Of a DNA stretch of 64,000 nucleotides, positions 1-36,857 are shown in pieces (within the stretch, counting starts at the first letter, position 1; the number at the start of each line of letters is the position of its first letter). The position numbers were made by a program, and so were the translations under genes. This stretch comes from Yuukianura sp. NJ FZ-2021 (taxonomy: Eukaryota), in assembly GCA_046563655.1 (NCBI GenBank), contig CM102285.1:8184001-8248000 (forward strand). Reading direction: 5' to 3'. A model generated the notes under the pieces. The model had not been told where the DNA came from. It saw nothing but the letters and a program-made list of their open reading frames with translations, and made no database searches.

Positions 1-10
1 GTTAAATTCC

Positions 11-1942
11 ATGACAGCTCCTATCGAATTTTCACTCGTAGGTATTGACACCATTCTAGAGTGGCTACGACCTCGCCATACGTATATGTCCATTTGCGAT
101 GTTTCTAAATCATACTGGTCTATACCAATGAGTGAGGAAAGCAAGCAATACACACAGTTTACTACTTTCCTTGGGAATTTTGAATTCAATTATATGCCGT
201 TTGGCCTGGCTTTTGCCAGTGCTTCCTGGGTTCGCGCCCTTACCATGGTATTAGGCACTCTGCTTTATGTCACGTGCGCCACCTACATCGATGACATCAT
301 CATGGGAGCTGAGACCTGGGACAAACACCTTCAGGACATCCGGCTCACGTTTACTCGCCTTAGGGAGTTTGGAGTCAAACTTAGTATCCACAAATGTAAG
401 TTCGGTTACAAACAACTCCCCATTCTCGGGATGATTATCGATCAGGACGGCATCCGCCCCAGCCCAAAGCGGGTCCAGGCAGTCCTCGACATACCATACC
501 CGACGTCGGTTACTAAACTCCAACAGGCCCTAGGATCTGTCAATTGGCTACGTCGTTCGATTCCCAATCTCTCTATTATCAGTCGCCCTTTGTACGAACT
601 TCTCAGAAAGGATCAACCTTTCCAATTCGAAGCACGGCATAAGGAAGCGTTCGACGCTATCAAGGCAGCCTTAACGCACGAACCAGTACTTCATTGGTTT
701 GTGCAGAGTCGGGAGACAAAGGTATTCACGGATGCTAGCATGACAGGCATCGGATGTTGTCTATTCCAAGTCAATGATCAACAAATCGACGTCCCTTGCG
801 CATACTACTCCGTTACTTTGACTAAATCACAATCTGCTCTGCCGGCATATCTCCGAGAGGTCTTAGCGATTGTCACTGCATGCCGCGTATTCCACATCTA
901 TCTTCATGGCAAGCACTTTACGGTATACACGGATAGTCTTCCAGCTTCATTTCTAAAGACAGCTAATTTGACCAAGAAACTCAATGACAGGTTGACGTTG
1001 TGGTCTCTGAGTCTCCTCGACTATGACTTCGACATTAAATATCGATCGGGCAAGACCCAAGAATTTCCTGACTGGCTGAGTCGCAACAGCCAACCAGAGA
1101 CATTTAACGATTTAACCGGCCTTAAAGATCCATATACCCTAGCTATCAATTACGCTCCCATCCTGATTTCTAAACTCAACGCTAAAACCTTTCAACATAG
1201 CAACGAACTGTATGATTGGAAAGAGCTGCAGCGACATGATGCCTTTTGTAATCACATTCGAGCAAAGCTAGAATTGAACCATCCTCAGATTCGAAAGCGG
1301 TATTTAATCAAGAAGGGCTTGATTTATGATCTTAAACTAGGCTTCAGTAGAATTGTAGTTCCCGACACCGTACGTCGCACTATTCTCTTTGATGCTCATT
1401 CTAGCCCACTCGGAGGCCACGTTGGGTTCTCCAAGACTTACCTCCGGCTGATCCAACGATATACCTGGCCAACTATGAAGTCAGATCTGTATGCTTTCAT
1501 CCTAGCCTGCGACCTTTGTTCTCGAATGAAGCGTCACTATGGGAAGAAGCAAGGCCTCTCGGGCAACCTTCCGGTTCCACAATACCCCCACGAAGTTGTA
1601 TCATCCGACATCATAGGCAAATTAAAAATTCCCAGCGAAGGGTATTCTTACATTCTCAACATTGTCTGCCTCCTCACACACTACACCATTTTAGTACCAC
1701 TGAAGTTCCTCACAGAAGATGAATTAGCGGAAGCCTTCGAACAGGAGTTATTCCTCAGATATGGCGTTCCAAGGGTCATAATCACGGACAACGGCTCTAA
1801 TTACACATCAGCGCTAATGAAACATCATGCGACCCTCTTTAAAACTCGTATCCGTCACCCTCTTTATCAAATGCCCAATTTCGCAGAAACAAATCATGCC
1901 TTTCCGGAACCCGCCACCTCATACCCACGCTTCGCTTGTTAA
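11..1942 (+). CDS. pol: Gypsy pol (RT, RNase H, integrase), partial; integrase C-terminal half appears deleted
   Basis: CDVSKSYW, MPFGL and YIDD RT motifs; TDAS/REVLA/YTDS/DWLSR RNase H; H-x6-H...CxxC zinc finger; SSDIIG and ITDNGSNY integrase aspartates; no ERxNR glutamate motif after ~1850. Confidence 0.93.
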   Translation: MTAPIEFSLVGIDTILEWLRPRHTYMSICDVSKSYWSIPMSEESKQYTQFTTFLGNFEFNYMPFGLAFASASWVRALTMVLGTLLYVTCATYIDDIIMGAETWDKHLQDIRLTFTRLREFGVKLSIHKCKFGYKQLPILGMIIDQDGIRPSPKRVQAVLDIPYPTSVTKLQQALGSVNWLRRSIPNLSIISRPLYELLRKDQPFQFEARHKEAFDAIKAALTHEPVLHWFVQSRETKVFTDASMTGIGCCLFQVNDQQIDVPCAYYSVTLTKSQSALPAYLREVLAIVTACRVFHIYLHGKHFTVYTDSLPASFLKTANLTKKLNDRLTLWSLSLLDYDFDIKYRSGKTQEFPDWLSRNSQPETFNDLTGLKDPYTLAINYAPILISKLNAKTFQHSNELYDWKELQRHDAFCNHIRAKLELNHPQIRKRYLIKKGLIYDLKLGFSRIVVPDTVRRTILFDAHSSPLGGHVGFSKTYLRLIQRYTWPTMKSDLYAFILACDLCSRMKRHYGKKQGLSGNLPVPQYPHEVVSSDIIGKLKIPSEGYSYILNIVCLLTHYTILVPLKFLTEDELAEAFEQELFLRYGVPRVIITDNGSNYTSALMKHHATLFKTRIRHPLYQMPNFAETNHAFPEPATSYPRFAC

Positions 1943-4560: not shown

Positions 4561-5027
4561 ACCCCCTCTTCTATCTACTCGTGTTCTTTCTTTCTCTTTC
4601 GTTCTACAACACTCTCTCGTGGTGTTTTTCCTATCTCTTTCTCTTTTTCCCTTTCTTCTCCTTTCTTTAGCATATTAGAATCTAGATGTAAGTAACGACT
4701 CAGCATTTCTCGAGAAAATACCAAAAAAAGAGTGTAAACTTCGGAGTGTGTTTTACTTAGTTATAAGACAACCAACATTGATGTTCACTAACCCTTTATC
4801 ACCTTTAAGGTACAAGTTATCGTCCGTTACCATTTCAATGTTAACATAGATTACTCCCACTCTTAGGCAAAGACTCATAACAAATATGTTAGATTTACAA
4901 CTAGTGTCAGATATACTTATCATACCATCTACCACCCATTGCCTATATACCCCTCTACTACTTAAGGTGTGTTATTCTAATGTACAAACCAAAAAGGAGC
5001 CTCCGTTTCCAACCGGAGGGGAGATTA

Positions 5028-5714
5028 TGTCAGCTCCTAAACCGGGCCAGAACGGCGGATTCAGGAGTGACATGATTTCCGCCTAACTTGGAAGAACCTC
5101 CAAGGTCGCTTCCAAGTTCGGCGGGATTCGGTTTCACGAGTTGCCCGGAAATCCTAGCAGAGTCATCTCCTGATTAGGAGATGACCCAGTTTCCTCTAAA
5201 AATAGAGACTCAGATTTGCAAATCCTGATTTGCAAATCTGAATCTCGAGAGAGTGAGAAGACGAGAGAGGAAGGAAGCAGATCGGCTAAGGGAAAGCGGA
5301 GTGATCTCGGCCTCAGGGAGAGTTCCCTTAGCCGAGATCACCCGCCTAACCCAACTTAACCCGGACTTGACCTCTCACCCCCTGGAGGTTGCGGAGACCC
5401 TCCGACGTGTTCTCGTGAGTGTGGAAATAAAAAGTGTGCAACAAAACTTTCTCCAGAGCTCTTCCGGAGTCTTCTTTAGTTGGTTAGAAGCGATGTGGTT
5501 AGAGGAGCTTTCTGTTCTGGTCTCCGCTTTCTCCAGATTGACCTCGCAACTCACACGAGCCCTGATCCAGTCACCGTCCGAGATCCAGTCCGATACCTCT
5601 CGGGCCACAGTTATCATGGTGAGGTCTAACATACATTCTCTCATTTCCTCCCGGGAGCCTCGGGGTTACCCCCTCGGTATCCGCGGGGTTCACAGAAGAG
5701 GTGGGAGCTTGACA
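5028..5714 (+). repeat. 3' LTR of the gypsy element (~687 bp)
   Basis: TGTCAGCTC...GAGCTTGACA terminal inverted repeat, preceded by PPT, AATAAA at ~5426, abrupt switch to copia coding sequence after 5714. Confidence 0.8.
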
Positions 5715-6800
5715 GTCAGCCCAAGGAACAGGCCTGTCAAGTGCTCACACCTTGGACTAGAAAAAATGAAAGATGAGGATTACACTTGTAATTCCTGTGT
5801 CCTCGGAAAATCAAAACGGCAAGGTTATAAAACCAGTTCAAGTGAAAGTAATTTTAAAGTTGGCGAATGTTTGCATTTAGACTTGGGCTATGCAAACACA
5901 CTTTCCAAAAAGGGAAATAAATACTTTCTTGTGATCAAGGATCAAGAAAGTAATCCTGACCAAAACAAAATTGTCCTAAGAAGGGACTCAAGTGGAGAAT
6001 ATAAAATTGTTTCTCCACAAAAAGAAAGTTCCATTGAACCGGATTATGTAAATCTAGAAAATGTGACGATCAAATCCGATTCTGACTCAACTCTGGAGAA
6101 TACTTCCAACGACTCAACTATGACGAATAACAGTACATTACGTAGATCAGCTCGTTTACAAGCTAAAAATTCAAAATTTCAAATGTTCGTACAAAAAACT
6201 GTTCCTTCCTCGTATAAGGAAGCAGTTCAATCAACTGAGGTTGACGAATGGAAAGAGGCAATGGAAGACGAATTCAGGAGCCAAATACAAAACAAAACAT
6301 GGATTCTGGTTTCCAGACCACTGAACAGAAAAATACTTAAAAATCGCTGGGTTTTTCGTATAAAAACTAATCCGGATGGGACAATCGACAAATATAAAGC
6401 CAGATTAGTTGTCAAAGGGTTCAATCAGGTTGAACGAGTTGACTACGAAGAAACTTTCGCACCTGTCTGTCGTTATGACACGATTAAGATTATGTTAGCA
6501 TTAGCAGCCCAAGTAGCGTGGGACATGATACAATTTCACATTGCCGCCGCGTTTTTAAATAACACTCTGGACGAAGAAATCTTTATGGAACAACCAGAAG
6601 GGTTTGAAGTTCACGGTACTAGTGCGCATGGCGACAATTTAGTCTGCCTACTGAAAAAGGGACTTTATGGACTAACAAAAATAGCATTTTCATTCATCAA
6701 CGCAGTTACATTGAAACTTTGTTAGACAGATGTAATATGTCCAGTTGCAAACCATCGACTCTACCCATCAGTCCTGGACTGCAACTTAAAACCGCCATTG
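5715..6800 (+). pseudogene. Ty1/copia pol remnant (integrase N-part, RT) with internal deletions; target of the gypsy insertion
   Basis: CNSCVLGK..CLHLDLG; PSSYKEA..WKEAM..E; KYKARLVVKGFNQ..DYEETFAPV; LKKGLYGL; then (other frame) HQRSYIETLLDRCNMSSCKP; YVDD region missing. Confidence 0.88.
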
Positions 6801-6889
6801 ACAAAGGAAGTTCGGATTAAAAGCTGTCATTGTAACAGCGTTTAAACTTGAATTACAACAGCTGTTGACTTTTTTATTTGTAAGAAAAG

Positions 6890-9800
6890 GTACAAGTGTA
6901 TGTGAAAAGTGTTTAGTAGTGTCTTGACCTTTGAGTGCATAAGTGAAGTGGTAGGTGAAGGTGAAGTGAAAGTTCAAGAGTCAAGTGACTTGTTGCAAGT
7001 GAGTGAAAAGCTTAGTAATACTGTGTCATACCAATATGGCGTCGTTTCCAATTATGAGACTGAGGAAGTCAAATGGCATGAAAAACAAAACACCTGCGCT
7101 ATCAAAGGTTCGTATTTTAAGCTTAGAGTCAGTAGTAGCAGTAGCAGATTTTAAAAATTACTTTGTAGTTTTCATGTGGATTTCAAAATTCCAGAGGTTC
7201 GTGCAAGTTTACATGTAAAAATTATCAAACTTTGGATGAACACACGGAAAGCCATCACGAGTGCTTTCACTGTGGGAAAAGTTTTATGAACAAAGGCAAT
7301 GATCACAAGTGTAACCAAGTCGGCCGTGGCTCAAACAGATTTCTTGGACCCAAGCCTCAAGAAATTGACCCTTCCGTTTTTCAGGAATCAACATTTTCCT
7401 GTCGCGGGTCTGTCCTTATTTATGTTCATCAGGTTCCAGACAGTGACCCACCAGTCACAATGGTGTCGCTATTGATGCAACAGCTCTATACACCATTTGT
7501 AAAACTTTTGACTCAGCTGCTGGAGCATTACAAGGGAATTCGAATTTCTCTTAAGCTAATTGTGAACATGGTGGAGCTCAAGTACAACTTTAGATTCCCG
7601 AATGCTGCAATTTCGAGTCCATTTACCATTCTCACTCATGCAAATTACATTCCACGAGTGTTTCTGCAAACTACATCCTTTGTCATTGAATCGTTGAACC
7701 TATTTTTGCAAAGAGGAAGTGACTGGACAGTGGAACGTATAAAGCGTGTTGAAGTTCACTGCGGCATGTACAAACCATTGCCAGGGCGTGGGTACATTCC
7801 ACTTCCAAAAGAATTAAAGGGACGTCAAGGGCTAGTCAACATAAAAACGTCCAATTGCTTTGAGCTGTCAATTTACTGCAGCATTTTTGGAGACAGTATT
7901 GTGAAAGAAAAGCTGCTCGAAAGAAGATTGATTGGAGCAAAACTTCCAACAAATATTCCAAAATTTAGAAACAGGATACTTTCCAAACCAGCTTCATATG
8001 ATACACTGGTTAAACTGGATCTCTTGAAGCTCACGCCCCAGTTGAGGAGAGATGGCGTAACGATGCTTGACTTTGATGTGGTGGAAGAAATGAACAAGGA
8101 ATTGTCTTTGAACTTGTATCGTTTAGACCACGGTCAGATTGAAATTTCTCGAATTGCCCCGACGGTCAAGAAATACCACGTTAATCTTCTTCAAATTGAA
8201 AATGGGACGGCGGCTCACTTCGTCGCCATTACCGACTTTGGCAAACTTAATGCCACATTTCAAAGAAAAAAAAAGTACGACTATTGTCCAAGGTGTCACA
8301 AAAAGTTTCTTGCCAAACGCAAAAGTATTAATTCACACTTGTGCGGCACACAAGTAGTGACTACAATTTCGAAAAAAAAGTACTTTGAATTTGAAAAGTG
8401 GGATCAAATGCTTCAGTCCCCATTCCTAATGTACCACAAATTTCATTACGTGAATGATGAAACTACAGACTCCAGTGACGCCCGAGTCCACTCGGAAAAG
8501 ATTCCAGTTGGATTTTCGTATTTTTTAATGGAACAAGGAAAGGTTGTCGTTTCTGGTACTTATATTGGGCTGGACGCCATGCAAGCATTTTTAAACATTG
8601 CTCTGGGATGCGCAGATGAAGTTATTCACAACATTAAGACAGTCAACTACCCAATACACTGGACTGCAGAGCAACAACAGCGACACCAAGAAGCGTTGGA
8701 ATGCGAAATTTGTCTAGGTATGTTGGCAATGTAAAAGTAAGATAAGCACAAATTTAAGTTAGTTAATGTTACATTGAGCTTTTGATGATGGTCAACTGTG
8801 CTCTGACGGCAGAAGTTTTTGAAAAGCAACGAAGCGTCAATTGGACAGAATTTGGTCTTGAACTGGCCGCTAGCTGGACAGTCAATGGCTATTCTTTCAA
8901 CGCAGCTGCATTAGTCGGCAAAGTTAAAATTGAATACTTGGCCGATGAAGAGTTTATCGCAGACGTTGAGAACGGGCTGATGGCTGGAATTCAAGTGGTC
9001 AACAAGCGCAAGGTCATTTGTAACACGGATCGTTTTGGACCCGAATACTTGGACCCAACCAAGGAAAGGATTGAATGCCTAAGCTGTGACGTCACTGGCA
9101 GCTATCCTTCCGTGTGTCTCGGACTGCTTCCGATTGGAGATTATAGACGCATGTCACAAGAAGAAATTGATGCTTTTGACTTTGTGAACCCGCCTTGGAA
9201 CGAGTCAAGGGTTTATGTTTTTGTCTGTGACCTCCACTACCCAAACGATGTCCACGATAGACTATCTGCATTTGTGTGTCCGCCAGAGAAACGACGGATA
9301 GATTTGGAAACGCTCTCTCCGCTCCAGCAAGAATTTGTCACGTCAACAAACAAAATTTTGACACCAGAATACTTGTTACTAACTCTATGGGACAAGAACG
9401 GTATAGTTTTGCACCACCAACTTTTGGCAATGTCGCTCCGTTTGGGCGCGGTTCTCAAGAAAGTTCTTAGAGGGTACAGTTTTGCTCAAGCGCCAATTTA
9501 CGCTGGATATGTGAGACACAACTTGCAAAAACGACTAGAAGCCAAGACAAAAACTGAAAAGGAACTTGCAAAACTAGCCAACGTATCTCTAAGTGGCAAA
9601 TTTCTTAGTGACACTGGAGCATACAGCAGGTCACAGCTCTGTAAAACTGCAAGTGGCGCCAAAAGGCTGTTGGCATCTGACGTTTTTGAAAATTTTGAAA
9701 TTATAAACCAAGATGTCACGCTATTTCAATTGAAAAAAAAAAGCAGTCAAGGGGAAAAATTTAAAACTAATTGGACTATGCATCTAGAACATTTCCAAGG

Positions 9801-10381
9801 CAGTGTTGTATTCTTATGTTTACGATCACATTTACCCAGCATTCAACTACAAAATGGAAATGATAATGTGCAATACGGATTCATTTTTTGGCGAATATCA
9901 AAATGACCATGGCACATTTTTGAAAAAGTTGAAATCCTTGGCGCCAATTTTTGACTTTTCGGACCAAGAAGGGGAACTTTTTGACGACAGGAACAAAGGA
10001 AGGCCCGGTGTTTTCAAAATATGCAACTTGAACGTTCAAGAGGCGTATTTCATTTCTCCAACACAATACAGCCTTCAACTTTTTCCAAAAAGAGATGGAT
10101 TTAATTGGACTGAAAAGCTCAAAGTAGGGGGGTTGGAACGACAATTTGCAGCTACTAACCTAAGGCACCAACAATTCAGGGATCATGTGGAGAGGGAGGA
10201 GTTGGAGCAAGACATTGTTTCTGTCGAAAGCCTACGGTTCACCGGAGAGACAATTAACAATATAAAAATTAATCGAAAATCCATCGGAGCATGGGACTTG
10301 AAGAGGTTCTTTGTTTCTAATCGAGAATCCTATGCTTTTGGACATTTTCGACAAATCAACAACAATGCACACCCCAATTAA
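6890..10381 (+). pseudogene. Polinton-type protein-primed PolB paralog with N-terminal C2H2 fingers; catalytic motifs largely substituted; internal deletion ~8720-8770; frameshift near A-run ~9733-9742
   Basis: RGSDW..YKPLPGRGYIPLP..LVNIK..NCF (pPolB N-terminal signature); CEIC (start of HNH insert); motif A CDVTGSYP; motif B KLANVSLSGKF; motif C CNTDS; C-terminal DLKRF..ESYAFGHF. Confidence 0.85.
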
Positions 10382-10514
10382 CAGAAACTCCAGGACACCT
10401 GGCAGCGTCCTGGAATTAACAAACCAACCGAGACTGACGCCAAGGTCTTATTTGCATTCTAGTCAAGTCCAGGCAAAGTTCAACGTCAAACACCCAACCA
10501 AGTCAATACTTGCA

Positions 10515-11036
10515 ATGGAGGTCATTTTGTGCAAAGTAAAGGAAGATTTTGAGAGCGGCCATGTTAAAGAAATCATGGCGGCTAGCATGGTGGAGAAGAG
10601 AGCCAGGATAACCACAAAACATGAAGAACACACCGAAGCCTATTCCATTTCGGAATGCTTTCTAAAGCTTCTCGAAGAAAATGGACAAAAGGGATTGGAA
10701 AATCAAATTCTAGGAGCCAAAGTTATTTTGTGTGTTGACGCACAAACAAAGTCCATTTTGAAATTAGCAAAATTTGAAAAAGAAAAGAAGCTTCAACTTT
10801 TGCGAACTTTGATGGTGACCCCGAGCGCCTGCGTTGACCAAAACTTGAACCGATATCAGTTTGGATTAATACTAAAAGAGGCAAGAAACTCGATTTGGAA
10901 AAACCAAGTGTGGACACGGCTTCTCGGCAAACGAATTAAAGGTAATTTATTTCCATTTAAAACTAGTGTCATCACAATATGGTACGCTACAATGCTCTTG
11001 ACTATTTCCATTACAAAATATTTTTGTAGAATCTAA
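10515..11036 (+). CDS. Small hypothetical protein, possibly Polinton accessory family
   Basis: ATG 10515 open to 11036 immediately after pPolB; no firm motif. Confidence 0.4.
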   Translation: MEVILCKVKEDFESGHVKEIMAASMVEKRARITTKHEEHTEAYSISECFLKLLEENGQKGLENQILGAKVILCVDAQTKSILKLAKFEKEKKLQLLRTLMVTPSACVDQNLNRYQFGLILKEARNSIWKNQVWTRLLGKRIKGNLFPFKTSVITIWYATMLLTISITKYFCRI

Positions 11037-11353
11037 ATGATAGGGCAAAAACTCTCCAGAATCCGAATTTACAGACAGCTTAACACTAGCTCCCTCGTAA
11101 TAACCCCTACCAACTAAAACTTTGTAAAAGGTATCAAATTCTTGAAACCAAACATTAATATTAGTCAACTCTACTTGACATCGCAAATTTTTTACAATGA
11201 TTGCTTTGGTCAAAATTTCGTCTTTAATACGATCTAAAAGTTCAGATTCGCTAATTGCCAAAACTGTACATAACCTATTTTGCCACTTGAACTGTGGAAC
11301 GTCATACTTGATGAGGTCTTGCGCAGTTTTCCCAATTAAAGCGGAATCGGGCT
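10947..11353 (-). CDS. Small hypothetical protein with Cys/His-rich C-terminus, convergent with previous ORF
   Basis: Open frame extends upstream of the listed ORF to an acceptor-like TTTTTTTAG near 11353; ends FCNGNSQEHCSVPYC. Confidence 0.35.
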
Positions 11354-11817
11354 AAAAAAATTCAATTTTTTCAACTTTGGAATTTTAACAATGTAGTGTT
11401 TCAACTTACGCAACAGTGCCGTTTACGGAAAACTTTGTATTTTTCCCTGGGGGTTTTGATTAACCCGGGCGGTATATACGCAATAGAAGTGGCGCATTTT
11501 GGTAAGATTACATTTATTTCGTTTAAGGTAGTTTTCGGAACCGGAAGTGGTAGGGCACCCATTTCATAATTATCGGCTGAAGCGTCCCAGTCTTCATCGA
11601 TCTATTTTTAAATTTAGTTTTGCGTAAAAATTTTTAATACTTTTTGAAAATTTTTGCGAATCTTTTACATGTTTGTCTAATTTTGAACGAGTGAATTTAC
11701 TAAGACCATCATTCCATTCAGCAGCAGCCTAAAACAAATTTATTAACTATACTTCAACTCATTTTACTTTATTTTGTAGCGAGACCAGTACCGCGATAAG
11801 GAAAAAATTTCCAAGCT

Positions 11818-12147
11818 ATGTCAAATCGGCCGGCGGAACCTAACCTTTCTTCTGATTCGGAAACCAACAGTGAGCCAGAAAGTGAAAATAAGGAGAATGA
11901 CATTGAGCAAGGACGAGCCAACTTGACCTTTCCCCAATACAGCCCAATATCATCGTCCGGGAGTCCGGAAGTGGTGACCCCTGTCTCGAGTCCCCTAAAA
12001 TCCCTCAACAACATCTCCCTGGTCCCGTTGCCACCATGCTATTCGGAGGAGTTGTATTGTCCCGAGTTCCCAGAAATGTACTTAGGATCTTTCATGGGAC
12101 ACTGCTACACTGACAAGGCTCCCAATAGTTTTTACAATAGCTTTTAA
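11818..12147 (+). CDS. Ser/Glu/Pro-rich hypothetical protein (109 aa)
   Basis: ATG-initiated ORF, AATAAA at ~12309; no recognisable domain. Confidence 0.35.
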   Translation: MSNRPAEPNLSSDSETNSEPESENKENDIEQGRANLTFPQYSPISSSGSPEVVTPVSSPLKSLNNISLVPLPPCYSEELYCPEFPEMYLGSFMGHCYTDKAPNSFYNSF

Positions 12148-12689
12148 GTTTTGTGAGACTTGACTAATTTTGTGACTAGTTTTAAATTGTTTTTCATTCA
12201 TTTTAAAATGCTAAAGTTTGAAAAGTTTTATGCCATTTTTGATTACTTGCTAGTCATAAGAAGTCACTTTTCCTTTTCCCCTTGTATCTTTAGTATTAGA
12301 TTTCATTGAATAAATACACACATTTGTACTGCAAAACTGCTGACGTTTGAAAAACAAAATCATTTTTGCGAAAAGGAACGTGAGAAGGAAGCAATTTCAA
12401 AGGGCCAGTATTTTATGGCCATTTTCATTATTTTAAAGATAGTCAACTAGGAGCCTTGCTTAAATTTCAGTCCATTTTCAAAATAGCTTTTGAGTGTTTC
12501 GGACAGTTCTTTCAAATCAGTCTAACAATGGGTAAGTTTAAAAGTCATCCAATTTTCTCGATTTTTAAAACCTATACAATTAAAAATTGATAATTTAGAA
12601 TGTCAAAAAGTTCAAAACTGCTTCGACTGTGTCAATACGGCCTGTTCTTGGTGGGTAAATGTCGGAGGTCAAAAGTCTTAAACGCCGCC

Positions 12690-13148
12690 TTGACCCCATT
12701 TCAAATTACATTCAAGTACTCTGAAAAAGAATCCTTGTTGACTTATACGCGTGAATCTACGCACAATTACATTACACGCCTCTCCCCCTTATTGGACCAA
12801 ATATTTGGACTTCCCCCTGGAACTGCATTTCATGATCACACCCAAACACAACCAGCAAAAGCAGAGATTGACCTTGGGGTCACATCACAGCACATGCTTG
12901 TTACTTGCGATCTCGCCTCCTATTCCCAAGTTGGCCAGCTTTCACTTCCCTTGATTGGATTGTTTAAGCAAGAGGGAAAGGAGGGAACTCCTGTCCATCT
13001 GGTTATCAACAACCCCCGCTACTTTCCAGTAAAAAGGGAGCAACTGATTGATTCTACCCGCATTCAGCCTTTGGACGAGTACCAGGCACCTCTCTCTGAA
13101 GGTCAAGGGCCAACCCTACTCGCTCTCCATGTCCGAAGCAACCCCTAG
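12690..13148 (+). pseudogene. Polinton minor capsid (penton) protein, C-terminal fragment
   Basis: MLVTCDLASYSQVGQLSLPLIG...NPRYFPV...IQPLDEYQ...TLLALHVR matches the vxCDxvxxqxvG..pll..P.Y.Pv..D..LH.r pattern of Polinton pentons. Confidence 0.75.
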
Positions 13149-13192
13149 GTATTACGACGTTGACCCCTCCCGACCACGTCTTCCCGAGTTGT

Positions 13193-14902
13193 TCATCGAG
13201 GACTAACGACTTTTAATGTACCAGTTAAATGGTCATGATCGCGACATCTCTCAGTAAACTTGTCAAATCTATGACCACATATGTGGCAGTGCGTAGCATT
13301 ACTGTAGGCCATTTCTTCTGCCTGTGTCATCCTGAAAGGTACGTTGATGTCGTAGATTTCCATAATAATTTTGCCAATTTCCAAGCACTCTTCTAGAAAT
13401 ACCTCAATCGCATCGTTTCCTCTATAAACACGAAACGTCACTAGTTCTTGATGTGAGTTCACTAAGGCATATGAAAACCCAGAAGGTACGTGCCGTTTTT
13501 CTTTCACAGTACTTGAGTAGTCATGCTGCGGCGGCATGTCAGCATACATAACGTAGCCAGCTTTCATTTGGTTGGCAAAATTTTCAAATGAAATTTCTTT
13601 TCGGTCTTCTGGCATTTTAACTTTTTGAGCCGCAAATTTCTCACAGCCTACGCGATGTAAATTCAGCAAACAACGACGATCACAAGCTGAGTTTCTGCAT
13701 GTGCTTGGACACATTTTTATTCTCTGAAGGCAATTAAAGCACAAAGCACGTTTTCTGCAGTTCTGTTTCCCTAAGAGTCTGTCTATGTCACGAATTGCAA
13801 CAAAATGCAATGCATTTGTTTTTTTGTTGGTCAAAAGTAGCAAATTTGCAGTGCGGGCATCTGTATAATTAAACTCAGATATTTGCAAAGGATACAAACC
13901 TTGGAGACTATCATGCCCAAACACATTCACAGCAACGCCGTTAGTAAGTTCAAATTGGCGAATTGCCCGGAGTGAAACTGGGAAGGATACCGTAGTGAAG
14001 TCATAAAGACTTTCTAGCTCCAGATAGGAATTCGGCCTTGAAGCTTATTTTTTGTTGGAGATTTTGTGTACCGACGCCAGAAAAGCCCATTTGAAGCAAA
14101 AATTTCCTTTGGTTTTGATGTTGATGGTTGCTCTTTTACGTTGCAAGTACTTTGGCAAATTTCGCCAGGATCCTCCCGTCAAAGCATTAAACTTTGCAAT
14201 TCGTATGTCAGATCCATAAACTTTTCCAAATTGCCACCCGGAACCGTATGTTTCGAAGATGCTTATGGAATGTTCAATCTTTGTGAGACACATTTGCAAA
14301 AACCGGCTAAGGCTGTGGTGATTGTTGAGTATGACAATCATGTTCGAGTTCACCATTTTCTGCTGATATTCATACACATCATTGCCGTCTATTGATTTGA
14401 AGAGAAAGCGTTGAAATTGAACTTTCACAGAAATTTGGCTCTTGACACAATTGAAGGTCCTCAAGCACTCATTAATAATGTGATGTATCTGATCGCTCAA
14501 CTTATAAAAGTACATATTCAAGTTTTCAATTGGTTTTTTTTTGCAATTGTGACAATATGTTCTGATGTATCCTTTGAAAGCTTGAATTTTTTGGAATGGG
14601 TGAATATCCAACTTTCGTCTTTGAGTCATTGAGCCACCACTTTGAATTCTCCTGGTTAAAATCCTTGCAGCACTTTTATGAATTAGCTTGGAATGCTTAG
14701 TAGCTCTATGCCTTTCCAGGTCCAAGTGTCGGTGAAAAGATTTTGAGCAAACTAAGCGCTTGTTAATAGGCTTTCGAGGTCTGCTAAGGCGCCTCGCATT
14801 GAATCGCCGGCATTTTGACAAATGCACCAAAAAATGTTGCTTGTTAGTTGAAACTTTCAGACAGAGTTCGCACCTCAGCGTGGAAAGTTGGATATCTTCC
14901 AT
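13193..14902 (-). pseudogene. Second pPolB (N-terminal half, with HNH/endonuclease VII insert), one in-frame stop at 14045-14047, truncated after the HNH
   Basis: N-terminal C2H2 fingers; YGSGW..GGSW..LP..ATINIK..CFKWA; YVMYAD (ExoI); CHICG..RCRDHDHLTG; ORFs 14045..14902 and 13193..13930 are in the same frame. Confidence 0.88.
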
Positions 14903-15567
14903 TTTCTAAAAACAAAAAAGACAAAATAAATTCCAAACGGAAATGCTCGGAACCTTTTTCATTCCTATTTCCACCGTCCGATGGCGTCGGCAGGGAGACA
15001 GTATTTAAATTGCCACGACCATTGCCATTTTAAAAAATAAAACAATCAATGTTAGCTGTAATGTTCAAGGACTAATAATATTTCCTTCGTAAAAATTTTA
15101 ACTGAATGAATTAATAGAATGCTTACAAACAGGTTATGAGGAGCCTTTACGTTCCTTAAAGGGTGTAAGTCCTTTTTGTCCCTTAAAGAGTGTAAGTCCT
15201 TTTTGTGTTTAATGATGGGAGGTTTTAGTGACGATAAGTAGAATTAAATTCTAATACGTGCAAAGTGTAAAGCTTAAGAGATAAAATGCAAAATTGCAAT
15301 TTCAAAGTTTTAGTTTTAGAGAAATCAGCAAAATTGCAACTTCAGAAATCCAACTTAAGAGAAATTAGCAAAATTGCAACTTCAGAATTTTCAAAAATTG
15401 CATTTTCCCATGAAGCGAAGCCCTAACTTTTGATTTTCACACGATTCAGATTGTTTCAAAACCGATAAATTTTGATTCAGTCGAGTACTATCAGTGATAC
15501 AGTCAACAACTACCAAACAACACTTACCAAACAACCAAAAGCCTTGTGTCAGAGTTGCAGTTACAAG

Positions 15568-17180
15568 ATGAGTTACAAGCTACGGAAAGATAATCAAAAG
15601 GATTTTTAACTTAGCTTGTTTTTTGTTGATGATTTCTAATTCTATTATTTGAAATGATTTCTAATTATATTTGATAAAATGTGTTTTTAGTTTCGACATT
15701 TGACGAAGAAGAAGAAGGCGAACCGGAAATTGTGGATTTGGATGAAACGTCGTTTCAAAATGGGTAGAAGGCTGATGCGGCCTTTGCATCGGCTTCCAGG
15801 AAAAACCCCATAAGTAGGAGCCAGCAATTTAAAGAAGCCGTCAAGGAAAAAATGTCGGCAGCCGCTGCAGGAGTTGAGGTAAGTTGTCTAAGAAAAAGTT
15901 TTTTGAAAGAGTTTTAAATGTAAAATGTAACTATTGGTTCATCAGTTCTGTCAATTGTTATTAGCATTACTTTATCCCATTATTAGGATTCGGATCCTGA
16001 GTTTGTTGTGGGTGAGGACGAAGGAGAAGGCGAAGAAGAGTCGGAGGAAGACGAAGTAGATGACGAAAACGAGGACGAGGAAGAAGGCGAGGAAGATCCG
16101 GAAGCATCCGAAGATGAGTTAGTTTCTGCGCTTAAAAAACGCAATTCTAAGGAACTGGCAATTCGCCAAATTGGAAAAGAGCCCGAATTTCTAAAGGTAA
16201 TTTTTGTTCAAAGTATACCTACTAAATGCTCTTCATAATATTTAAGTTTATCGCCAAGCTCGTTTCTTGCAGCGAACTGCTGATGAAACGAAAGCAGGTT
16301 CCGGAGTTGGTCTGAAGTCAAAAGCAGAACCTTCTGTCAGAGCCAAACCAGGTCAGCGACCGAAAACCCCGTCAAGCGTTGTAAAGAAGTCGCGAAGTCT
16401 CACTGATGTGAACAAAAGAGGGAAGGAAAAGGTGAATCAAAACAAGCTTGTAATAAATGGTTGTGCAATGATTTGTGGCGTAAAATTTGTTTACTTTTGA
16501 TATCCAGATTACCTACGGGGTTCAGAAACCAAAGCTCAAACGGCAAAATGTGATGCCGTTACCTGACCTTCCAGTCGGTGTAAAAAGCATGCTCCCTCCG
16601 AAAAAAGCTCATGGTAGAAAGGTAAATTTAGCTACAATCTAACCTAAATACTTCTGGGATTTTATGTTAGCTTTCTTGAGTGTAAATCTTTGATTTTGTA
16701 TACGATATAGAACGCTCCAAGAGCATTGCAGAAACGGAAGACAGAAATTTATACTGACTCGGACGCATCGTCTTCCTATGAACCACATAAAAAGAAAGGA
16801 CGAAAGCGAACGGGATTAGAGTACGAAGAGGACGGAGACGAGGATGATGAAGACGTAAGATACATATAACTCCTATAATTTGCACTTAGTTGCGACAGGG
16901 CTAATGACAGTTTTAATTTCTCAATTAGGACTTGGTTCTTGACTTGGCTCCAGCCGATCATAACACCAAGGGAAAGCAAATTCGGAGCGGATCCGTGCAC
17001 ATTGGACTCGACGTCCATGTCAAGTGGCACAAGTTTCGCGGGGCACACTATGTGATGATACGACACATGGTGAACGGTGTCGTAGATGGGAGAAGAGGCA
17101 TAAACATCAACATGCAGTATCTTCCGAACCTCAAGAGGGCCATCGACAAAGCGCATGAGTGCTACATGGAGGCACAGTGA
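15568..17180 (+). CDS. Multi-exon (~7 exons) acidic/basic protein with C-terminal PC4/Sub1-like ssDNA-binding domain; possibly degraded
   Basis: Last exon HIGLDVHVKWHKFRGAHYVMIRH..DGRRGININ..LPNLK..ID resembles the PC4 core (IG..V.V..FKG...IDIR..GRKGISL); donors at ~15879, 16197, 16432, 16622, 16855; E/D-rich exon 16008-16196; AATAAA ~17214. Confidence 0.7.
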
Positions 17181-17782
17181 ACACAAATTATTATTTGTTT
17201 CAAATAATTTTTCAATAAAATACATTGTGCTTCACCTTAACTTGATTTTTCATTATTGTCAATTTTTAAAAAAGTGAATATTTGCTTTAATATAACACTT
17301 CTTGGTAGTTAAGAAGTTGCAATTTTATTTCATTTGAGAATTTTTTGTTTTAGATTTTTTTGAAGATTGTTCATTGTTTGTTGTATTCACATTTTTTGCC
17401 AAAATTCATTTCATTTCTTCATCATTTTTCTTGTCCCGTTTACGGTCTCTTGCAAATCGTCGCCTATGACGTCTGCGATTAATTACGTCATCTGGTTTTA
17501 TCTGCCAAATGAAAACAAATCTAATTCAGTCAAAGTCGGTAATATGAACCTAATCTTTTGTGTTATGAACGCATCAAACGGAGTTCTTACAACTTCATGT
17601 TGCGTGATGACCCAATTTTGGGCTCCCTGTGCTGATTTCCCCGTGCCCATCCGGCGATAAATGGTATTGAATTTCTACGAATGAACGAAAATAAAGTTAC
17701 TAAAAGCAAATAGTTTACATATGGAATACGAATAGCAAATGGTTTCATCTACGTTACTTAGCCTCATAAACACCCTAACTTC

Positions 17783-19500: not shown

Positions 19501-20069
19501 TTAAAGTTGCGTCGCGGTTCGGTGAGGGTTCTAAGTAGACGGTGGTGGGTTCGTAGATTACACAATGATAACAATTTTAATAAAGAAAAAATTTTAATTC
19601 TACTTTACCTTGTGCCGTGATATCACCTTTGAGCTGGGTAGAAAGTCAATCCGGTTCGAAGACCATTATGTGACCTCTCGTCCTGGGTGAACCAAAGCTC
19701 AGGCCGCATACGTCGCCGCGTAACAGACGGACTACTGGCTGCTTGACCTCTGTGCCCAGGTCCGAACACCACCGAGGTGGCGCAGGTCCTGGGTGCCAGC
19801 TCTACGGATCATGGCTGCTGAATATGGCTCAATGCCATCACAAAGGAAACAGTAAACGAAGGCAACGTGTGGCTACTCTCTTTTATTGCTTGTAGAATCT
19901 TCCTACTCCAGTAACTGGACGTCACCGTGACAGGCGCTGGGAAGAGGAGCTATCTCGAGGACAACTCGTCCTCAACCGAGCGCTCTCTACTCACTGACTG
20001 ACCATCGAGATATGACTGAGAACCTAGCCTCATCCCGAGTGCCGTCACACACCTCTGCTTGGAGACGAA

Positions 20070-22485: not shown

Positions 22486-23512
22486 ATGACAGCACAGTTT
22501 CCCGTTCTTTGGACGTCCGATATTCCTCATAACCAATGGGATCGATCAAGGGATGTGACAGATGCCTTAGAAGCCGTAGGAGCTGGACGGGTTGGATATC
22601 GCCCTATTGACCAACGATGCCCAACAACGGTCCAGTTGAGCTCTACGATCACTCTGCAGCCACTCAAACTTATGGAATTTTTCACATGGTTTCTCCATCA
22701 TTCGACCATAACTAGTTCTTGGAGAAGTTTTGGCGAGTCTTCAACTTCGTAATCACTTTATGGAAGAACTCGGACCACCTACATTTAAATTCGGGAGACT
22801 AATTGCCATTCCACCTACTCTACTCTCCCAACTCGAACCACTAATAGACAATCCAGCTTTGTTACACATTGGCTTTAAGAAATTTGCTTGTTACCAGTCA
22901 GCCCTTGTAATTACACACAATCAGTTGGCTAGAGTTAGCTGCTCACGTATCGCACTACCCGAACGGGTTAACCAGGTTTGGATAGATCTGCAAGCGCAGG
23001 TTGGATGCTCCTTTCTTTCACTCCCTACTCGTTCTTTCTTGTATAACCTATTTACGGATACCATGTATGCCCAACACGAGGGAGGGCCTCTACAACTCAA
23101 TATGCGAAATGTAAGGCCGGACAGCTTAGCATTTAAAGCGTTTTACAGCCAACAATTTAAAGACATTTATGAATATTTCTATCTCCTTGAACATACCAAA
23201 CAGTTTGCATTCCTCTTACCTGTTCAAAAATGGAGGTTTTGCCATGAAATTATAGCCTATCATCCCCTTATTCGCGAGTATAGGAGATTCAAACACCAAC
23301 CTACAGCATTCGATGATTATACGGGTTGGTGTACACCACTTCAGGGACAAGGGATCACACCTACGCGTTTCCTGTTCCAACAAATCCTATGTTTGCCACA
23401 GCTGATCGCTTCTATACTTGTCATCCGATCTGTACTACAACACGGTTTGGAAAATATATTGAAGAACACGGGGCAGGTTGCTCGCAAGCTCATGGTGTTG
23501 TACACAATTTAG
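22486..23512 (+). pseudogene. Intronless hypothetical protein (overlapping ORFs of 88 and 260 aa)
   Basis: Long ORF in the same compositional style as the neighbouring LRR/MMP block; no recognised domain. Confidence 0.35.
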
Positions 23513-35209: not shown

Positions 35210-35440
35210 ATGGCTTCAGTAAACACGCTTCCAGATACAAAGCCCAATTACGTCTCCCAACTCGATCTATTCTCAGTCCCCCCAACAGACATTAGTGTGC
35301 AACAAACAGAGTTCATCAAGATTATTCCAGTGAATACTGTAAAAGAAAATCCTCAAATCACACTCAACATTGGGCAGTTTCAATTCCCACCCAACGTTTA
35401 CTTGGATTTCTCATCTTCATACCTCTACCTAAAATGTTAC
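35210..35440 (+). pseudogene. Polinton major capsid protein, N-terminal ~75 aa only
   Basis: SQLDLFSVPPTDISV...P...YLDFSSSYLYLK matches the Polinton MCP start (seLdLFsvPpTq.si..YiDls.t.Ly.k). Confidence 0.8.
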
Positions 35441-36857
35441 TAATTACACGAGAAAATATTGGCCCTGTGATTCAAGTTACAAAGTTGAAGTCTATTGCCA
35501 ACAATGAGGAGCTGTCCAACTATGACCATACCCTTCCACAAAAAATAATTTTATATGCTGACATTAACTCCTGTTACAGCAAGTGCTTCTTGGGTAATTT
35601 ACCGTGCGGAAACTACAAAAAATTGAGAGCAGAGGAGATCATGAAGTTTGATTTCAACAAACCAGATTTTGACGAAGGCTGGGGTTACCTCTTTGAAGTC
35701 GACCTTGAATATCAAAGTGAAGCAGTAGTGAAAGAGTTCCTTTCAGACTTTCCCTTCCCGCAACAGAGACTCAAGGTTTCCGATCAAGAGCTTTCTCCAT
35801 TCCAGCGGGAGAGTTTGGGAGAAAAAACAAACATGGAACAAGAGCGAGTGCTTCTGACCCTCTACAAAAAAATACGACAAGTCTACTACGGAAAGTACCT
35901 CAAGTTCATGATTGACCATGGCGCAAAGGCAACAAAGTACTATTCAGTAGTTCGATTTCGGGAGTCTCCGATTTTTGCAAATTTTGCAGCTAGCAATGTT
36001 ATAGCTAGAAACCAAGCAAAGTTTCCTCTTCAAAAACAACTTCGGAAGCTTTTAAACAACTCGCTTTATGGGCAGATGCTGAAAAACAATGCAGATTACG
36101 TACGTTCAAAGACCATCAGATCTCGGTGGAAGCGAAAGCAGAACTTGCGAAAGCAACTTTCAAGTCGTTCGAGATTCGGGACGAAGACACTGCGCTTTTT
36201 GACTTTTCAAAAGGAGAAATCACCGATTACAATCTGCGCATGATTGGACTTGCAATACTTTCAAATGCAAGAATTATGCTCCACTCACACTACTATGACT
36301 GACTAAAACGTGAGTTTGGGGACAGGTGCCATCATGTGATGACTCATACTGACAGCATAGTTGCTGAAATCCACTGCAGCAGAGCCGAATACGTAGCTTG
36401 TCTGAAACGACTTTCGAATCGCTTCGACTTTTCTAATATACTGCCGTCATCCGAACTCTATGATTCTTCTCGGGCAGGAATACCTGGATTCTTGAAGATT
36501 CAAGCTGAAGGAATCAACGAATTTTACTCTACTTCCTGTTCCCAATATTCCATGGAAATTGATTCAGCACATTTGCAATCCAACATTCTGAAAGCGGGCG
36601 GAATTCCAAAAACAGAGGCCAAGGATCTGAGGCACGCTGATTTTAAGCGCGTAGTTGAGCATGGAGAGGCTTTGAAGAAAGTAAAAATTTCTACGGTGAA
36701 AATTTTACAAGACCAAATGTTAGTTGTCACAAGTAACCGCTCATCCCTCACCTCCAGCATCAACGCATCAAGATTTTTTGTGTCAAACGCAATTTCCCTT
36801 CCCTTTGGAGACAAGCGTATTGACACCATAGTTGATTATGATTTGAAAAATAATTAG
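35440..36857 (+). pseudogene. Third pPolB (polymerase domain only), frameshifted ~36120
   Basis: IANN..YD; LYADINSCY (motif A); GYLFEVDLEY; RKLLNNSLYGQ (motif B); MTHTDS (motif C); C-terminal SLPFGD. Confidence 0.87.

What the first reader, a model, noticed from the sequence alone, without database searches (positions are those of the whole stretch)
6890..10381. pPolB paralog that looks like an evolved pseudo-enzyme
Seen: long open frames (500, 374, 192 aa) but substitutions concentrated at catalytic positions. ExoI YADFE reads YHKFH; ExoIII Y...D reads YIELLMMVN; motif B KxxxNSxYG reads KLANVSLSG; motif C DTDS reads NTDS; the motif A Asp and the last motif C Asp remain. Inference: targeted loss of catalytic residues with few stops fits a dead or altered polymerase retained under selection (terminal-protein donor, processivity scaffold, or dominant-negative against competing Polintons) better than neutral decay.
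Basis: partly seen in the sequence, partly recalled or inferred. Interest (0 to 1): 0.8.

Follow-up and report, generated by a model that had tools for sequence, protein, structure and literature searches.

The report
Broken proofreading-dead Polinton polymerase copy
This is a damaged copy of a virus-like (Polinton/adintovirus-type) DNA polymerase gene from a previously undescribed branch of that family, a branch that lost its proofreading active site long ago yet stayed under selection, so the odd catalytic residues are inherited rather than decay.

Summary
The motif readings are correct. ExoI reads YHKFH, ExoIII YIELLMMVN, motif B KLANVSLSG and motif C NTDS. The motif A Asp and the second motif C Asp are kept.

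- About 187 profile positions, including ExoII, are absent between 8731 and 8767.
- The frame changes at an A10 run (9733-9742).
- There is an in-frame TAG at 9785-9787.

This copy is therefore a pseudogene.

The substitutions are not private to it. Four of the six best database hits, a second fragment in the window (35296-36854) and a metagenome contig form a clade with support 1.0/100. All members covered lack the exonuclease carboxylates (one keeps the ExoI Glu), the first motif C Asp and the KxY Lys. All keep the vOTU, zinc-finger and HNH-insert residues, and the polymerase residues D, Y, K, G and TDS.

One member is an intact 1203-aa ORF. Identity within the clade rises from about 0.15 to about 0.7 with column conservation. 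Of 40 listed differences from near-identical copies, 23 are synonymous.

Best reading: a broken member of a selected, proofreading-dead pPolB lineage whose polymerase site is remodelled. Whether that polymerase is active is open. This is a new variant of a known kind, of moderate interest.

The parts
7232..8734 (+). Frame 1 of copy 1 (500 aa). It holds an N-terminal TP-like domain, a vOTU-like domain (Cys in NCFEL at 7853-7867, His in AAHFVAI at 8210-8230), a C..C/H..C zinc motif (8285-8308), the ExoI remnant YHKFH (8432-8446) and the CEIC start of the HNH-like insert (8702-8713).
   Evidence: Profile positions 18-449, E 6e-63. BLASTP to P0001 residues 134-464. AlphaFold model pLDDT 82.4. Residues 191-338 match many OTU chains at Z 5.2-7.7. 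Best viral match is a Drosophila-associated adintovirus 2 protein, E 1e-28.
8732..8766 (+). Junction where about 187 profile positions (450-636) are absent. The missing part covers the rest of the HNH-like insert, ExoII and the stretch up to ExoIII. Stop codons lie in all three frames here.
   Evidence: Relatives P0002 and P0006 have this stretch. A 2316-nt contig of run X2 spans 6890-9095 with 6 differences, so the junction is in the DNA. That run is of the probable source sample, so this is not independent support.
8767..9906 (+). Frame 2 of copy 1. It holds the ExoIII remnant YIELLMMVN (8770-8796), motif A CDVTGSYP (9085-9108) and motif B KLANVSLSG (9571-9597).
   Evidence: Profile positions 637-963, E 7e-82. 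Pfam PF03175 at E 7.5e-5, 22.2 bits, below the 25.8 cut-off. BLASTP to P0001 residues 665-973.
9733..9742 (+). A10 homopolymer at which the reading frame changes.
   Evidence: Translations of the two frames and sequence. Relatives encode this stretch in one frame. A length variant of the run occurs in contigs of runs X1 and X3. The organism-B contig shows no gap relative to the window.
9785..9787 (+). In-frame TAG inside a conserved stretch of the polymerase domain.
   Evidence: read against the alignment.
9788..10381 (+). Frame 3 of copy 1. It holds motif C NTDS (9872-9883), FDFSD (9950-9964), the KxY remnant TQY (10061-10069) and the thumb/C-terminus.
   Evidence: Profile positions 976-1162, E 2e-29. 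BLASTP to P0001 residues 995-1173.
35296..36854 (+). Copy 2, a 5'-truncated fragment of the same variant clade in three frame pieces. Motif A YADINSCY is at 35554-35577, motif B KLLNNSLYG at 36046-36072 and motif C HTDS at 36345-36356.
   Evidence: Profile positions 697-1159. It is 33% and 32% identical to copy 1. It groups with copy 1, P0002 and L001 in trees.
13196..14905 (-). Copy 3, the N-terminal half of a canonical-type pPolB (profile 18-469). It ends inside the HNH-like insert. The ExoI Asp is kept and the ExoI Glu column falls in a gap.
   Evidence: It matches 18 of the 18 >=93% conserved columns it covers. It lies outside the copy 1 group in the N-terminal tree.

Best explanation
[quoted passage not shown] Its architecture is TP-like domain, vOTU, zinc motif, exonuclease domain with an HNH-like insert, then the polymerase domain.

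The copy belongs to a divergent clade, here called clade A. In that clade the 3'-5' proofreading active site was lost (ExoI, ExoII and ExoIII carboxylates). Several polymerase-site residues were also replaced: the first Asp of motif C, the motif B Tyr, the KxY Lys and the Leu of motif A. This happened before the clade's members diverged by about 1 substitution per site.

After that the clade stayed under purifying selection. It kept the N-terminal domains, the HNH-like insert and the core polymerase residues: motif A Asp/Tyr, motif B Lys/Gly, TDS with the second Asp, and the KxY Tyr.

Shown here: the unusual catalytic residues are inherited features of a once-functional, proofreading-less polymerase lineage. 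Also shown: this particular copy was later inactivated by an internal deletion, a frame change and a stop.

Inferred: the lineage's protein still performed protein-primed DNA synthesis without proofreading, probably with altered fidelity or DNA binding.
For: 1. The changes are shared, not private.
- Among the 151 database proteins (150 hits plus P0001), 12 form a low-retention group. They keep 0.58-0.69 of the 100 columns that are >=85% conserved. The median over the 147 proteins with enough cover is 0.96.
- In those 12, the ExoIII Asp is lost in 11.
- In those 12, D741, K903 and G911 are kept in all 12.
- In those 12, D1005 is kept in 11 of the 11 covered.
- Four of the six best hits to copy 1 (P0002, P0005, P0006, P0007) are in this group.

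2. Clade A is well supported.
- Its members are copy 1, copy 2, P0002, P0005, P0006 and P0007, plus L001 in the second tree.
- FastTree support is 1.0 with a stem of 0.39.
- IQ-TREE SH-aLRT is 100 with a stem of 0.35.
- The N-terminal half gives copy 1 + P0006 at 0.97.

3. Members share derived states.
- ExoI reads Y[YH]KFH in copy 1 and P0002.
- Motif C reads [N/H/Y]TDS in 6 of 6.
- The KxY Lys is T, S or N in 6 of 6.
- The motif B Tyr is S, T or A in 5 of 6.
- K1084 is G in 4 of 6.
- Q875 is E in 5 of 6.

4. There is selection within the clade.
- Pairwise identity is 0.12-0.23 in the least conserved columns and 0.56-0.76 in columns >=90% conserved among canonical proteins. All 15 pairs show this (rho 0.22-0.32, p<1e-6).
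- P0006 is a 1203-aa uninterrupted ORF.
- L001 is open across its whole 1040-nt contig.

5. There is selection among close copies.
- Of 40 listed differences to near-identical copies, 24 are at third codon positions (p=5e-4).
- Of those 40, 23 are synonymous, against about 22% expected.
- For the 96%-identical contig of organism B, 31 differences are listed. Counted codon by codon, by hand from the table, about 20 are synonymous (binomial p=4e-6 at an expected 0.25).

6. The fold is intact.
- The P0002 model has pLDDT 88.8 and pTM 0.85.
- Its best solved match is phi29 DNA polymerase, E 6e-16, TM 0.64.

7. The lesions of this copy are documented.
Against: - Only 40 of 159 read-level differences were visible, and no codon-model dN/dS could be run.
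- All clade A relatives are unnamed singletons from metagenome, ENA or Logan assemblies. Only P0006 is full length. Expression and genomic context are unknown.
- PMC3511435 (passages read) calls four polymerase residues invariant in family B2 polymerases: the motif A Asp, the motif B Tyr and both motif C Asps. Two of them are lost in clade A, so polymerase activity may be gone or much reduced.
- The conservation gradient was measured on a profile-guided alignment, which favours identities in conserved columns.
- The clade members have long branches (root-to-tip 3.0 against 1.9). Attraction could inflate support. However, the other long-branched variant group, clade B, does not join clade A.
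- The organism-B contig has no gap relative to the window over 8981-10400. It therefore shares the frame change at the A-run, yet its differences are mostly synonymous. This is unexplained.
- No integrase, capsid, ATPase or protease gene and no terminal inverted repeats were found around copy 1.
Confidence: 0.75

Rival explanations
1. Clade A proteins are catalytically dead pseudo-polymerases kept for a non-catalytic role, such as terminal-protein donor, scaffold or interference with competing elements.
For: - The exonuclease site is dead.
- Of four polymerase residues called invariant in family B2 enzymes (PMC3511435, passages), the first motif C Asp is lost in 6 of 6 members and the motif B Tyr in 5 of 6. 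The KxY Lys is also lost in 6 of 6.
- The TP-like, vOTU and zinc-motif residues are all kept where covered (S132, C180, F181, E227, N230, H273, C297, C300, H313, C317). The vOTU fold is predicted in copy 1 itself.
- Inactivated family B polymerase domains with presumed structural roles are known (PMC5499653, passages).
Against: - The motif A Asp and Tyr, the motif B Lys and Gly, the T-D-S of motif C and the KxY Tyr are kept in 6 of 6 clade A rows. Where covered, they are also kept in nearly all of the six clade B rows (exceptions: G for the motif C Ser in P0130, F for the KxY Tyr in P0070 and P0123). Meanwhile the exonuclease catalytic columns vary freely: K/F/S, H/E, E/S/L/A, N/K/R/M/Q/I/T. 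A site with no catalytic use would be expected to drift in the same way.
- No test of activity was possible.
Confidence: 0.2
2. Ordinary neutral decay. This is a canonical Polinton pPolB pseudogene whose catalytic residues happen to have mutated in this copy.
For: - The copy does carry three disabling lesions.
- Four losses at highly conserved columns were not seen in the other clade A rows: P328S, G708A, P803V and N907V.
- The six differences from a 99.7%-identical contig include 4 non-synonymous ones.
Against: - Frames of 500, 374 and 192 codons with only three lesions imply little post-inactivation change.
- Thirteen of the 17 lost columns, including ExoI, ExoIII, the motif C Asp and the KxY Lys, are also changed in other clade A members about 35% identical to it.
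- There is a synonymous excess among close copies.
Confidence: 0.04
3. A domesticated host gene derived from a pPolB.
For: There are signatures of purifying selection.
Against: - The sequence is multi-copy. Contigs break at many different points and variant copies occur in the same sample.
- Two broken clade A copies lie in one 64-kb window, among Ty3, copia and BEL/Pao remnants.
- The copy carries disabling lesions.
Confidence: 0.02

Closest known systems
Polinton/Maverick and adintovirus protein-primed family B DNA polymerases (TP-vOTU-Exo-Pol; PMC11161782, passages read)
   Same: - Profile, BLASTP and fold relationships.
- An N-terminal domain followed by an OTU-like fold with Cys and His kept.
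- The best viral structural matches are adintovirus, MELD and bidnavirus-like polymerases.
- Atlas look-alike clusters carry DNA_pol_B_2 and Endonuclease_7 on 14-34% of members. They are mostly Eukaryota, with Arthropoda the commonest phylum in two of the three best rows.
   Different: - The exonuclease catalytic residues, the first motif C Asp, the motif B Tyr and the KxY Lys are replaced clade-wide.
- PMC10748475 (passages) reports that integrase-linked pPolB1 and pPolB2 from all taxa keep the exonuclease and polymerase motifs.
- No integrase or capsid genes were found next to this copy.
pPolBs that lost the exonuclease domain: mavirus pPolB, and the pPolB-SF1 helicase fusions ('Tlr1-like helicases') of polinton-like viruses and transpovirons (PMC5499653, PMC11161782; passages read)
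   Same: These are also derivatives of Polinton-type pPolB without proofreading. In PMC5499653 the polymerase motifs are altered too and a structural role is discussed. PMC11161782 predicts that the palm domains are still active.
   Different: There the exonuclease domain is physically lost and a helicase is gained. Here relatives keep the whole exonuclease domain as a fold (P0002 model) with only its catalytic residues replaced. No helicase domain was found by Pfam.
pPolB2 of nematode and oomycete Polintons with an HNH insert (PMC10748475, passages read)
   Same: This is a nuclease-like insert in a Polinton pPolB. Canonical relatives here give weak Pfam Endonuclease_7 hits between ExoI and ExoII (E 5e-5 to 5e-4, just under the cut-off).
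   Different: Whether the insert sits at the same position or is homologous was not tested. In copy 1 all but the CxxC start of the insert lies in the deleted stretch.
Inactivated family B polymerase modules (Pol epsilon C-terminal half, archaeal inactivated PolB), as listed in PMC5499653 (passages read)
   Same: Family B polymerase homologues whose catalytic residues were lost but which are retained under selection.
   Different: Those have lost the polymerase catalytic residues. Clade A keeps the motif A Asp and the second motif C Asp.

Membership tests
[quoted passage not shown] | Sequence match above Pfam's gathering score | tested here: not met
   The 374-aa frame scores 22.2 bits against a cut-off of 25.8 (E 7.5e-5). 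The other two frames score nothing. Canonical full-length relatives also miss PF03175 at E<=0.01, so this group as a whole is remote from the Pfam model.
[quoted passage not shown] | phi29-type fold (exonuclease domain plus palm, fingers and thumb) | tested here: met
   This was tested on the clade relative P0002, not on the broken copy. The model has pLDDT 88.8. The nine best solved matches are phi29 DNA polymerase chains, E 6e-16 to 7e-14, TM 0.60-0.65.
[quoted passage not shown] | ExoI (DxE), ExoII (D) and ExoIII (YxxxD) catalytic residues | tested here: not met
   ExoI reads K and H. ExoII is absent by deletion. ExoIII reads L and N.
[quoted passage not shown] | Motif A Asp/Tyr and the second Asp of motif C | tested here: met
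   D741, Y746 and D1005 are kept in copy 1 and in 6 of 6 clade A rows. That these Asp residues are the metal ligands is recalled from phi29 work, not tested here.
[quoted passage not shown] | Motif B KxxxNSxYG, the first Asp of motif C (DTDS) and the KxY Lys | tested here: not met
   Copy 1 reads KLANVSLSG (N->V, Y->S), NTDS and TQY. The Lys, Ser and Gly of motif B and the Tyr of KxY are kept.
Polinton/Maverick or adintovirus element | pPolB with an N-terminal TP-like domain and a vOTU domain | tested here: met
   Model residues 191-338 match OTU chains in about 19 of the 34 rows with Z >=5 (Z up to 7.7; these are modest values). The Cys and His columns are kept. For the TP-like part, residues 36-182 give only Y-family 'little finger' matches at Z 7-8.3. 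Homology to terminal proteins was not shown here.
Polinton/Maverick or adintovirus element | Retrovirus-like (rve) integrase in the same element | tested here: not met
   Pfam scans covered window ORFs of >=150 aa and ORFs near copy 1. The only rve hit is in the Ty3-type pol at 2-1942.
Polinton/Maverick or adintovirus element | Double jelly-roll capsid genes, packaging ATPase and maturation protease | tested here: inconclusive
   There were no Pfam hits in neighbouring ORFs. Pfam is weak for these proteins, and no structure-based search was made.
Polinton/Maverick or adintovirus element | Terminal inverted repeats | tested here: inconclusive
   No long inverted pair flanks copy 1 within 5000-24000. 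A fragment need not keep its ends.
pPolB-SF1 helicase fusion (Tlr1-like helicase) of PLVs and transpovirons | Fused SF1 helicase domain and absence of the exonuclease domain | tested here: not met
   No helicase family was found in any frame or in P0002 or P0006. The exonuclease domain is present as a fold in P0002.
Catalytically dead family B polymerase pseudo-enzymes | Loss of the polymerase catalytic carboxylates | tested here: not met
   The motif A Asp and the second motif C Asp are kept. Only the first motif C Asp is lost.

The most novel reading that the evidence does not exclude
Animal-genome Polinton/adintovirus polymerases include lineages that repeatedly gave up proofreading. There appear to be at least three origins inside one group of 22 tree tips: clade A, clade B, and P0142 or P0085. 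Clade A went further and remodelled the polymerase site ([N/H/Y]TDS, LSG, [T/S]xY), with some new residues fixed (G1084, E875, S1140). This suggests a distinct functional class. It could be a mutator or low-processivity replicase, an enzyme restricted to the protein-priming step, or a non-catalytic terminal-protein/vOTU carrier that depends on a canonical polymerase in the same genome. A canonical-type copy lies 2.8 kb from copy 1.
Probability: 0.3. Interest if true: 0.65.

Novelty: new variant of a known kind. Interest (0 to 1): 0.5.

Why it matters
Protein-primed polymerases of Polintons and adintoviruses are usually treated as uniform proofreading replicases. Published surveys report that their motifs are conserved.

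A selected lineage with a folded but dead exonuclease domain and an altered polymerase site would change that picture. It would show that these virus-like elements can persist without proofreading. It would also offer natural variants for studying what the first motif C Asp, the motif B Tyr and the KxY Lys contribute to protein-primed synthesis.

It is also a caution for annotation. 'Degenerate' motifs in such genes can be inherited and selected, not a sign of decay.

For this locus itself the practical conclusion is modest: it is a pseudogene fragment in a transposon-rich region.

Tried and rejected
- **Own genome.** No whole genome is held for this window, so copies elsewhere in the genome could not be collected.
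- **Expression.** No RNA holder is listed among the runs, so expression was not assessed.
- **Related loci, second attempts.** The three-row alignment A2 gave 4 metagenome loci. It gave none of 85 candidate stretches in viral contigs.
- **Solved structures by sequence.** A sequence-profile search of solved structures with A2 gave only chance-level hits (E 0.6). The link to phi29 polymerase therefore rests on the fold search.
- **Word-index search.** A search with A2 returned 5 proteins: the query P0006, P0035 (already in the set) and three new ones, P0152-P0154. The motif states of those three were not examined.
- **Cluster look-up.** All ten variant proteins are unnamed singletons.
- **Intron at 8718-8781.** This was checked by hand. 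No GT..AG pair joins the two frames, and an intron could not supply the missing 187 positions. Rejected.
- **Programmed slippage at the A10 run.** Relatives encode the stretch in one frame, and an in-frame TAG follows 43 nt later. This reading is judged unlikely. However, the organism-B contig shares the run length, and that remains unexplained.
- **Two juxtaposed fragments instead of one deleted copy.** Both halves fall in the same clade, have the same orientation and are 35 nt apart. A deletion is the simpler reading, but juxtaposition is not excluded.
- **IQ-TREE with 1000 ultrafast bootstraps.** The run timed out. It was replaced by a 28-row --fast run with SH-aLRT.
- **Neighbouring ORFs.** Pfam on neighbouring ORFs gave nothing relevant.
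- **Earlier findings of this scan.** Nothing was found by place, sequence or words.
Full report
**1. What is at the coordinates**

The window looks like animal nuclear DNA rich in transposon remnants:
- a Ty3-type pol at 2-1942;
- a copia-type RT at 5253-6725;
- a BEL/Pao gag (DUF1759) at 31972-33648;
- a matrixin ORF at 25110-26300.

Only the middle one touches Pfam DNA_pol_B_2, and it scores below the cut-off (22.2 against 25.8 bits).

An exhaustive HMMER search with the middle frame found 2593 proteins at E<=1e-3. The best is only 33% identical. I built a profile from the 74 hits of 1000-1450 aa (1172 positions). It maps the three frames to positions 18-449, 637-963 and 976-1162.

The same profile found two more polymerase pieces in the window:
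- a 5'-truncated one at 35296-36854 (positions 697-1159, 'copy 2');
- an N-terminal half on the minus strand at 14905-13196 (positions 18-469, 'copy 3').

**2. The observation**

All motif readings are right:
- ExoI is YHKFH.
- ExoIII is YIELLMMVN.
- Motif B is KLANVSLSG.
- Motif C is NTDS.
- The motif A Asp and the second motif C Asp are kept.

I add that the KxY Lys is replaced (TQY).

- Profile positions 450-636 are absent between 8731 and 8767. This stretch holds most of an HNH-like insert, ExoII and the sequence up to ExoIII. It is found nowhere else in the window.
- The frame changes at an A10 run at 9733-9742.
- An in-frame TAG lies at 9785-9787.

A 2316-nt contig of run X2 bridges the deletion junction. 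That run is of the probable source sample, so it is not independent support.

Seventy-six columns are >=93% conserved in 138 canonical relatives, and copy 1 covers 58 of them. It has lost 17. All 4 exonuclease catalytic columns it covers are lost, against 13 of 54 others (p=0.0056).

**3. The substitutions are inherited, not private**

I measured retention of the 100 columns that are >=85% conserved. The distribution is bimodal:
- 12 of 151 database proteins keep only 0.58-0.69;
- copy 1 keeps 55 of 77 (0.71) and copy 2 keeps 35 of 51 (0.69);
- the median of the 147 proteins with enough cover is 0.96.

Among the 12 low-retention proteins:
- 11 lack the ExoIII Asp;
- none has a complete exonuclease set;
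- all 12 keep D741, K903 and G911;
- all 11 that are covered keep D1005.

Four of the six best hits to copy 1 belong to this group.

In a FastTree of the polymerase domain (145 rows), copy 1, copy 2, P0002, P0005, P0006 and P0007 form clade A. Support is 1.0 and the stem is 0.39. An IQ-TREE run on 28 rows gives SH-aLRT 100 for the same group plus the metagenome locus L001. The N-terminal half independently joins copy 1 to P0006 at 0.97.

A second variant group, clade B, has six proteins plus L002. Single variants P0142 and P0085 also occur. All of these sit among canonical proteins (P0003, P0004, P0008, P0015 and others) in one 22-tip clade with support 1.0. This suggests more than one loss of the exonuclease site.

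**4. What clade A kept and lost**

Kept wherever covered:
- the N-terminal residues S132, C180, F181, E227, N230 and H273;
- the zinc motif C297, C300, H313 and C317;
- the HNH-like insert residues C445, C448, H462, H464 and N478;
- the polymerase residues D741, Y746, G861, F873, R890, K903, G911, T1004, D1005, S1006, D1028, S1030, G1048, K1051, Y1070 and G1085.

Lost:
- ExoI D353 and E355;
- ExoII H492 and D498;
- ExoIII Y641 and D645;
- L745, K836 and Y847;
- the first motif C Asp (N, H, H, N, N, Y);
- the KxY Lys (T, S, S, T, N, T);
- K1084 (mostly G) and K1140 (mostly S).

The motif B Tyr is S, T or A in 5 of 6. The ExoI reading Y[YH]KFH is shared by copy 1 and P0002. Four losses were seen only in copy 1 among the clade rows: P328S, G708A, P803V and the motif B N907V.

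**5. Selection**

- P0006 is an uninterrupted 1203-aa ORF. L001 is open through its whole contig.
- Clade members differ by about 1 substitution per site on each branch. Even so, pairwise identity rises from 0.12-0.23 in weakly conserved columns to 0.56-0.76 in columns >=90% conserved in canonical proteins. All 15 pairs show this.
- Contigs of four public runs were laid on the locus. Three runs are from one sample of organism A and one is from organism B.
- They show several related copies. One is a 6188-nt contig of organism B that is 96% identical over 8981-10400 (55 differences, no gaps).
- Of the 40 differences listed (out of 159), 24 are at third codon positions. Twenty-three are synonymous, against about 22% expected.
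- For the organism-B contig, 31 differences are listed. Counted codon by codon, by hand from the table, about 20 are synonymous (p=4e-6 at an expected 0.25).
- By contrast, the six differences from a 99.7%-identical contig include four non-synonymous ones. That fits recent neutral change after inactivation.

**6. Folds and family**

The P0002 model (pLDDT 88.8) matches phi29 DNA polymerase best (E 6e-16, TM 0.64). The exonuclease domain is therefore retained as a fold.

The model of copy 1's first frame (pLDDT 82.4) has an OTU-like domain at residues 191-338 (Z up to 7.7, many OTU rows). Its best viral structural matches are adintovirus, MELD-virus and bidnavirus-like polymerases.

This fits the TP-vOTU-Exo-Pol architecture described for Polinton-type polymerases (PMC11161782, passages read). 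Canonical relatives give weak Endonuclease_7 hits between ExoI and ExoII. Nuclease inserts in Polinton pPolB2 are known (PMC10748475, passages read).

No integrase, capsid, ATPase or protease gene and no flanking inverted repeats were found near copy 1. It is a solitary remnant.

**7. Interpretation**

Shown:
- The exonuclease site is dead in a whole clade.
- That clade stayed under purifying selection.
- This copy is a later casualty.

Inferred: the clade's protein still carries out nucleotidyl transfer. The two Asp residues that I recall as the metal ligands of phi29 polymerase, the motif B Lys and the TDS are invariant in the clade, while the exonuclease positions drift.

Against this, PMC3511435 (passages read) counts the motif B Tyr and both motif C Asps among the invariants of family B2 enzymes. 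I give it about 0.2.

Unexplained: the organism-B copy shares the frame change at the A-run, yet it differs mostly by synonymous changes upstream of the run.

**8. Comparison with what is known**

[quoted passage not shown] There the domain is physically missing and a helicase is gained.

I ran three literature searches and read passages from four papers. None of those passages describes full-length Polinton/adintovirus pPolBs with a folded but catalytically disabled exonuclease domain and a remodelled polymerase site. PMC10748475 states that integrase-linked pPolB1 and pPolB2 keep all motifs. I did not open its supplements.

I therefore rate this a new variant of a known kind. The locus itself is an ordinary pseudogene. 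The lineage it reveals is of moderate interest.

Noticed in passing
window 13196-14905 (-): The N-terminal half of a canonical-type pPolB (profile 18-469) lies 2.8 kb from copy 1, in convergent orientation. Its ExoI Asp is kept, and it matches 18 of the 18 highly conserved columns it covers. It ends inside the HNH-like insert, within about 20 profile positions of where copy 1's first frame ends.
   Followed up: partly
window 35296-36854 (+): A second fragment of the same variant clade (motif C HTDS, motif B canonical KLLNNSLYG) sits directly after a truncated BEL/Pao element (31972-34370). It starts at profile position 697. That is close to where another copy type, seen in contigs of organisms A and B, departs from the window (8981, roughly position 707).
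   Followed up: partly
canonical relatives P0001, P0004, P0008 (between ExoI and ExoII); window 8702-8713 for the CxxC start: These pPolBs carry a CxxC...DHxH...CN insert with weak Pfam Endonuclease_7 (HNH-like) hits (E 5e-5 to 5e-4). Its conserved Cys, His and Asn residues are kept in clade A even though the surrounding exonuclease site is dead.
   Followed up: partly
window 9733-9742 and run X4 contig over 8981-10400: The 96%-identical contig of organism B has no gap relative to the window, so it shares the frame change at the A10 run. Some contigs of organism A carry a length variant of the run. Whether the run is bypassed by slippage was not resolved.
   Followed up: partly
window 25110-26300 (+): An uninterrupted 396-aa ORF has a strong matrixin (Peptidase_M10) match (E 3e-40). 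It could be a host metalloprotease gene or a retrocopy sitting among transposon remnants.
   Followed up: no
window 37130-37525 (+): This ORF contains tandem TTEPP repeats (mucin-like low complexity), directly downstream of copy 2.
   Followed up: no
window 2-1942, 5253-6725, 31972-34370: Remnants of Ty3-type (RT-RNaseH-integrase), copia-type (RVT_2) and BEL/Pao (DUF1759 gag) retrotransposons. The region is a transposon graveyard.
   Followed up: no
L002 (6053 nt) and L001 (1040 nt), metagenome contigs: These are further variant pPolBs with QTDS at motif C. L002 also has ExoI K/E and ExoIII F/S and several frame breaks. L001 is open throughout and is sister to copy 2 (SH-aLRT 99.8).
   Followed up: partly
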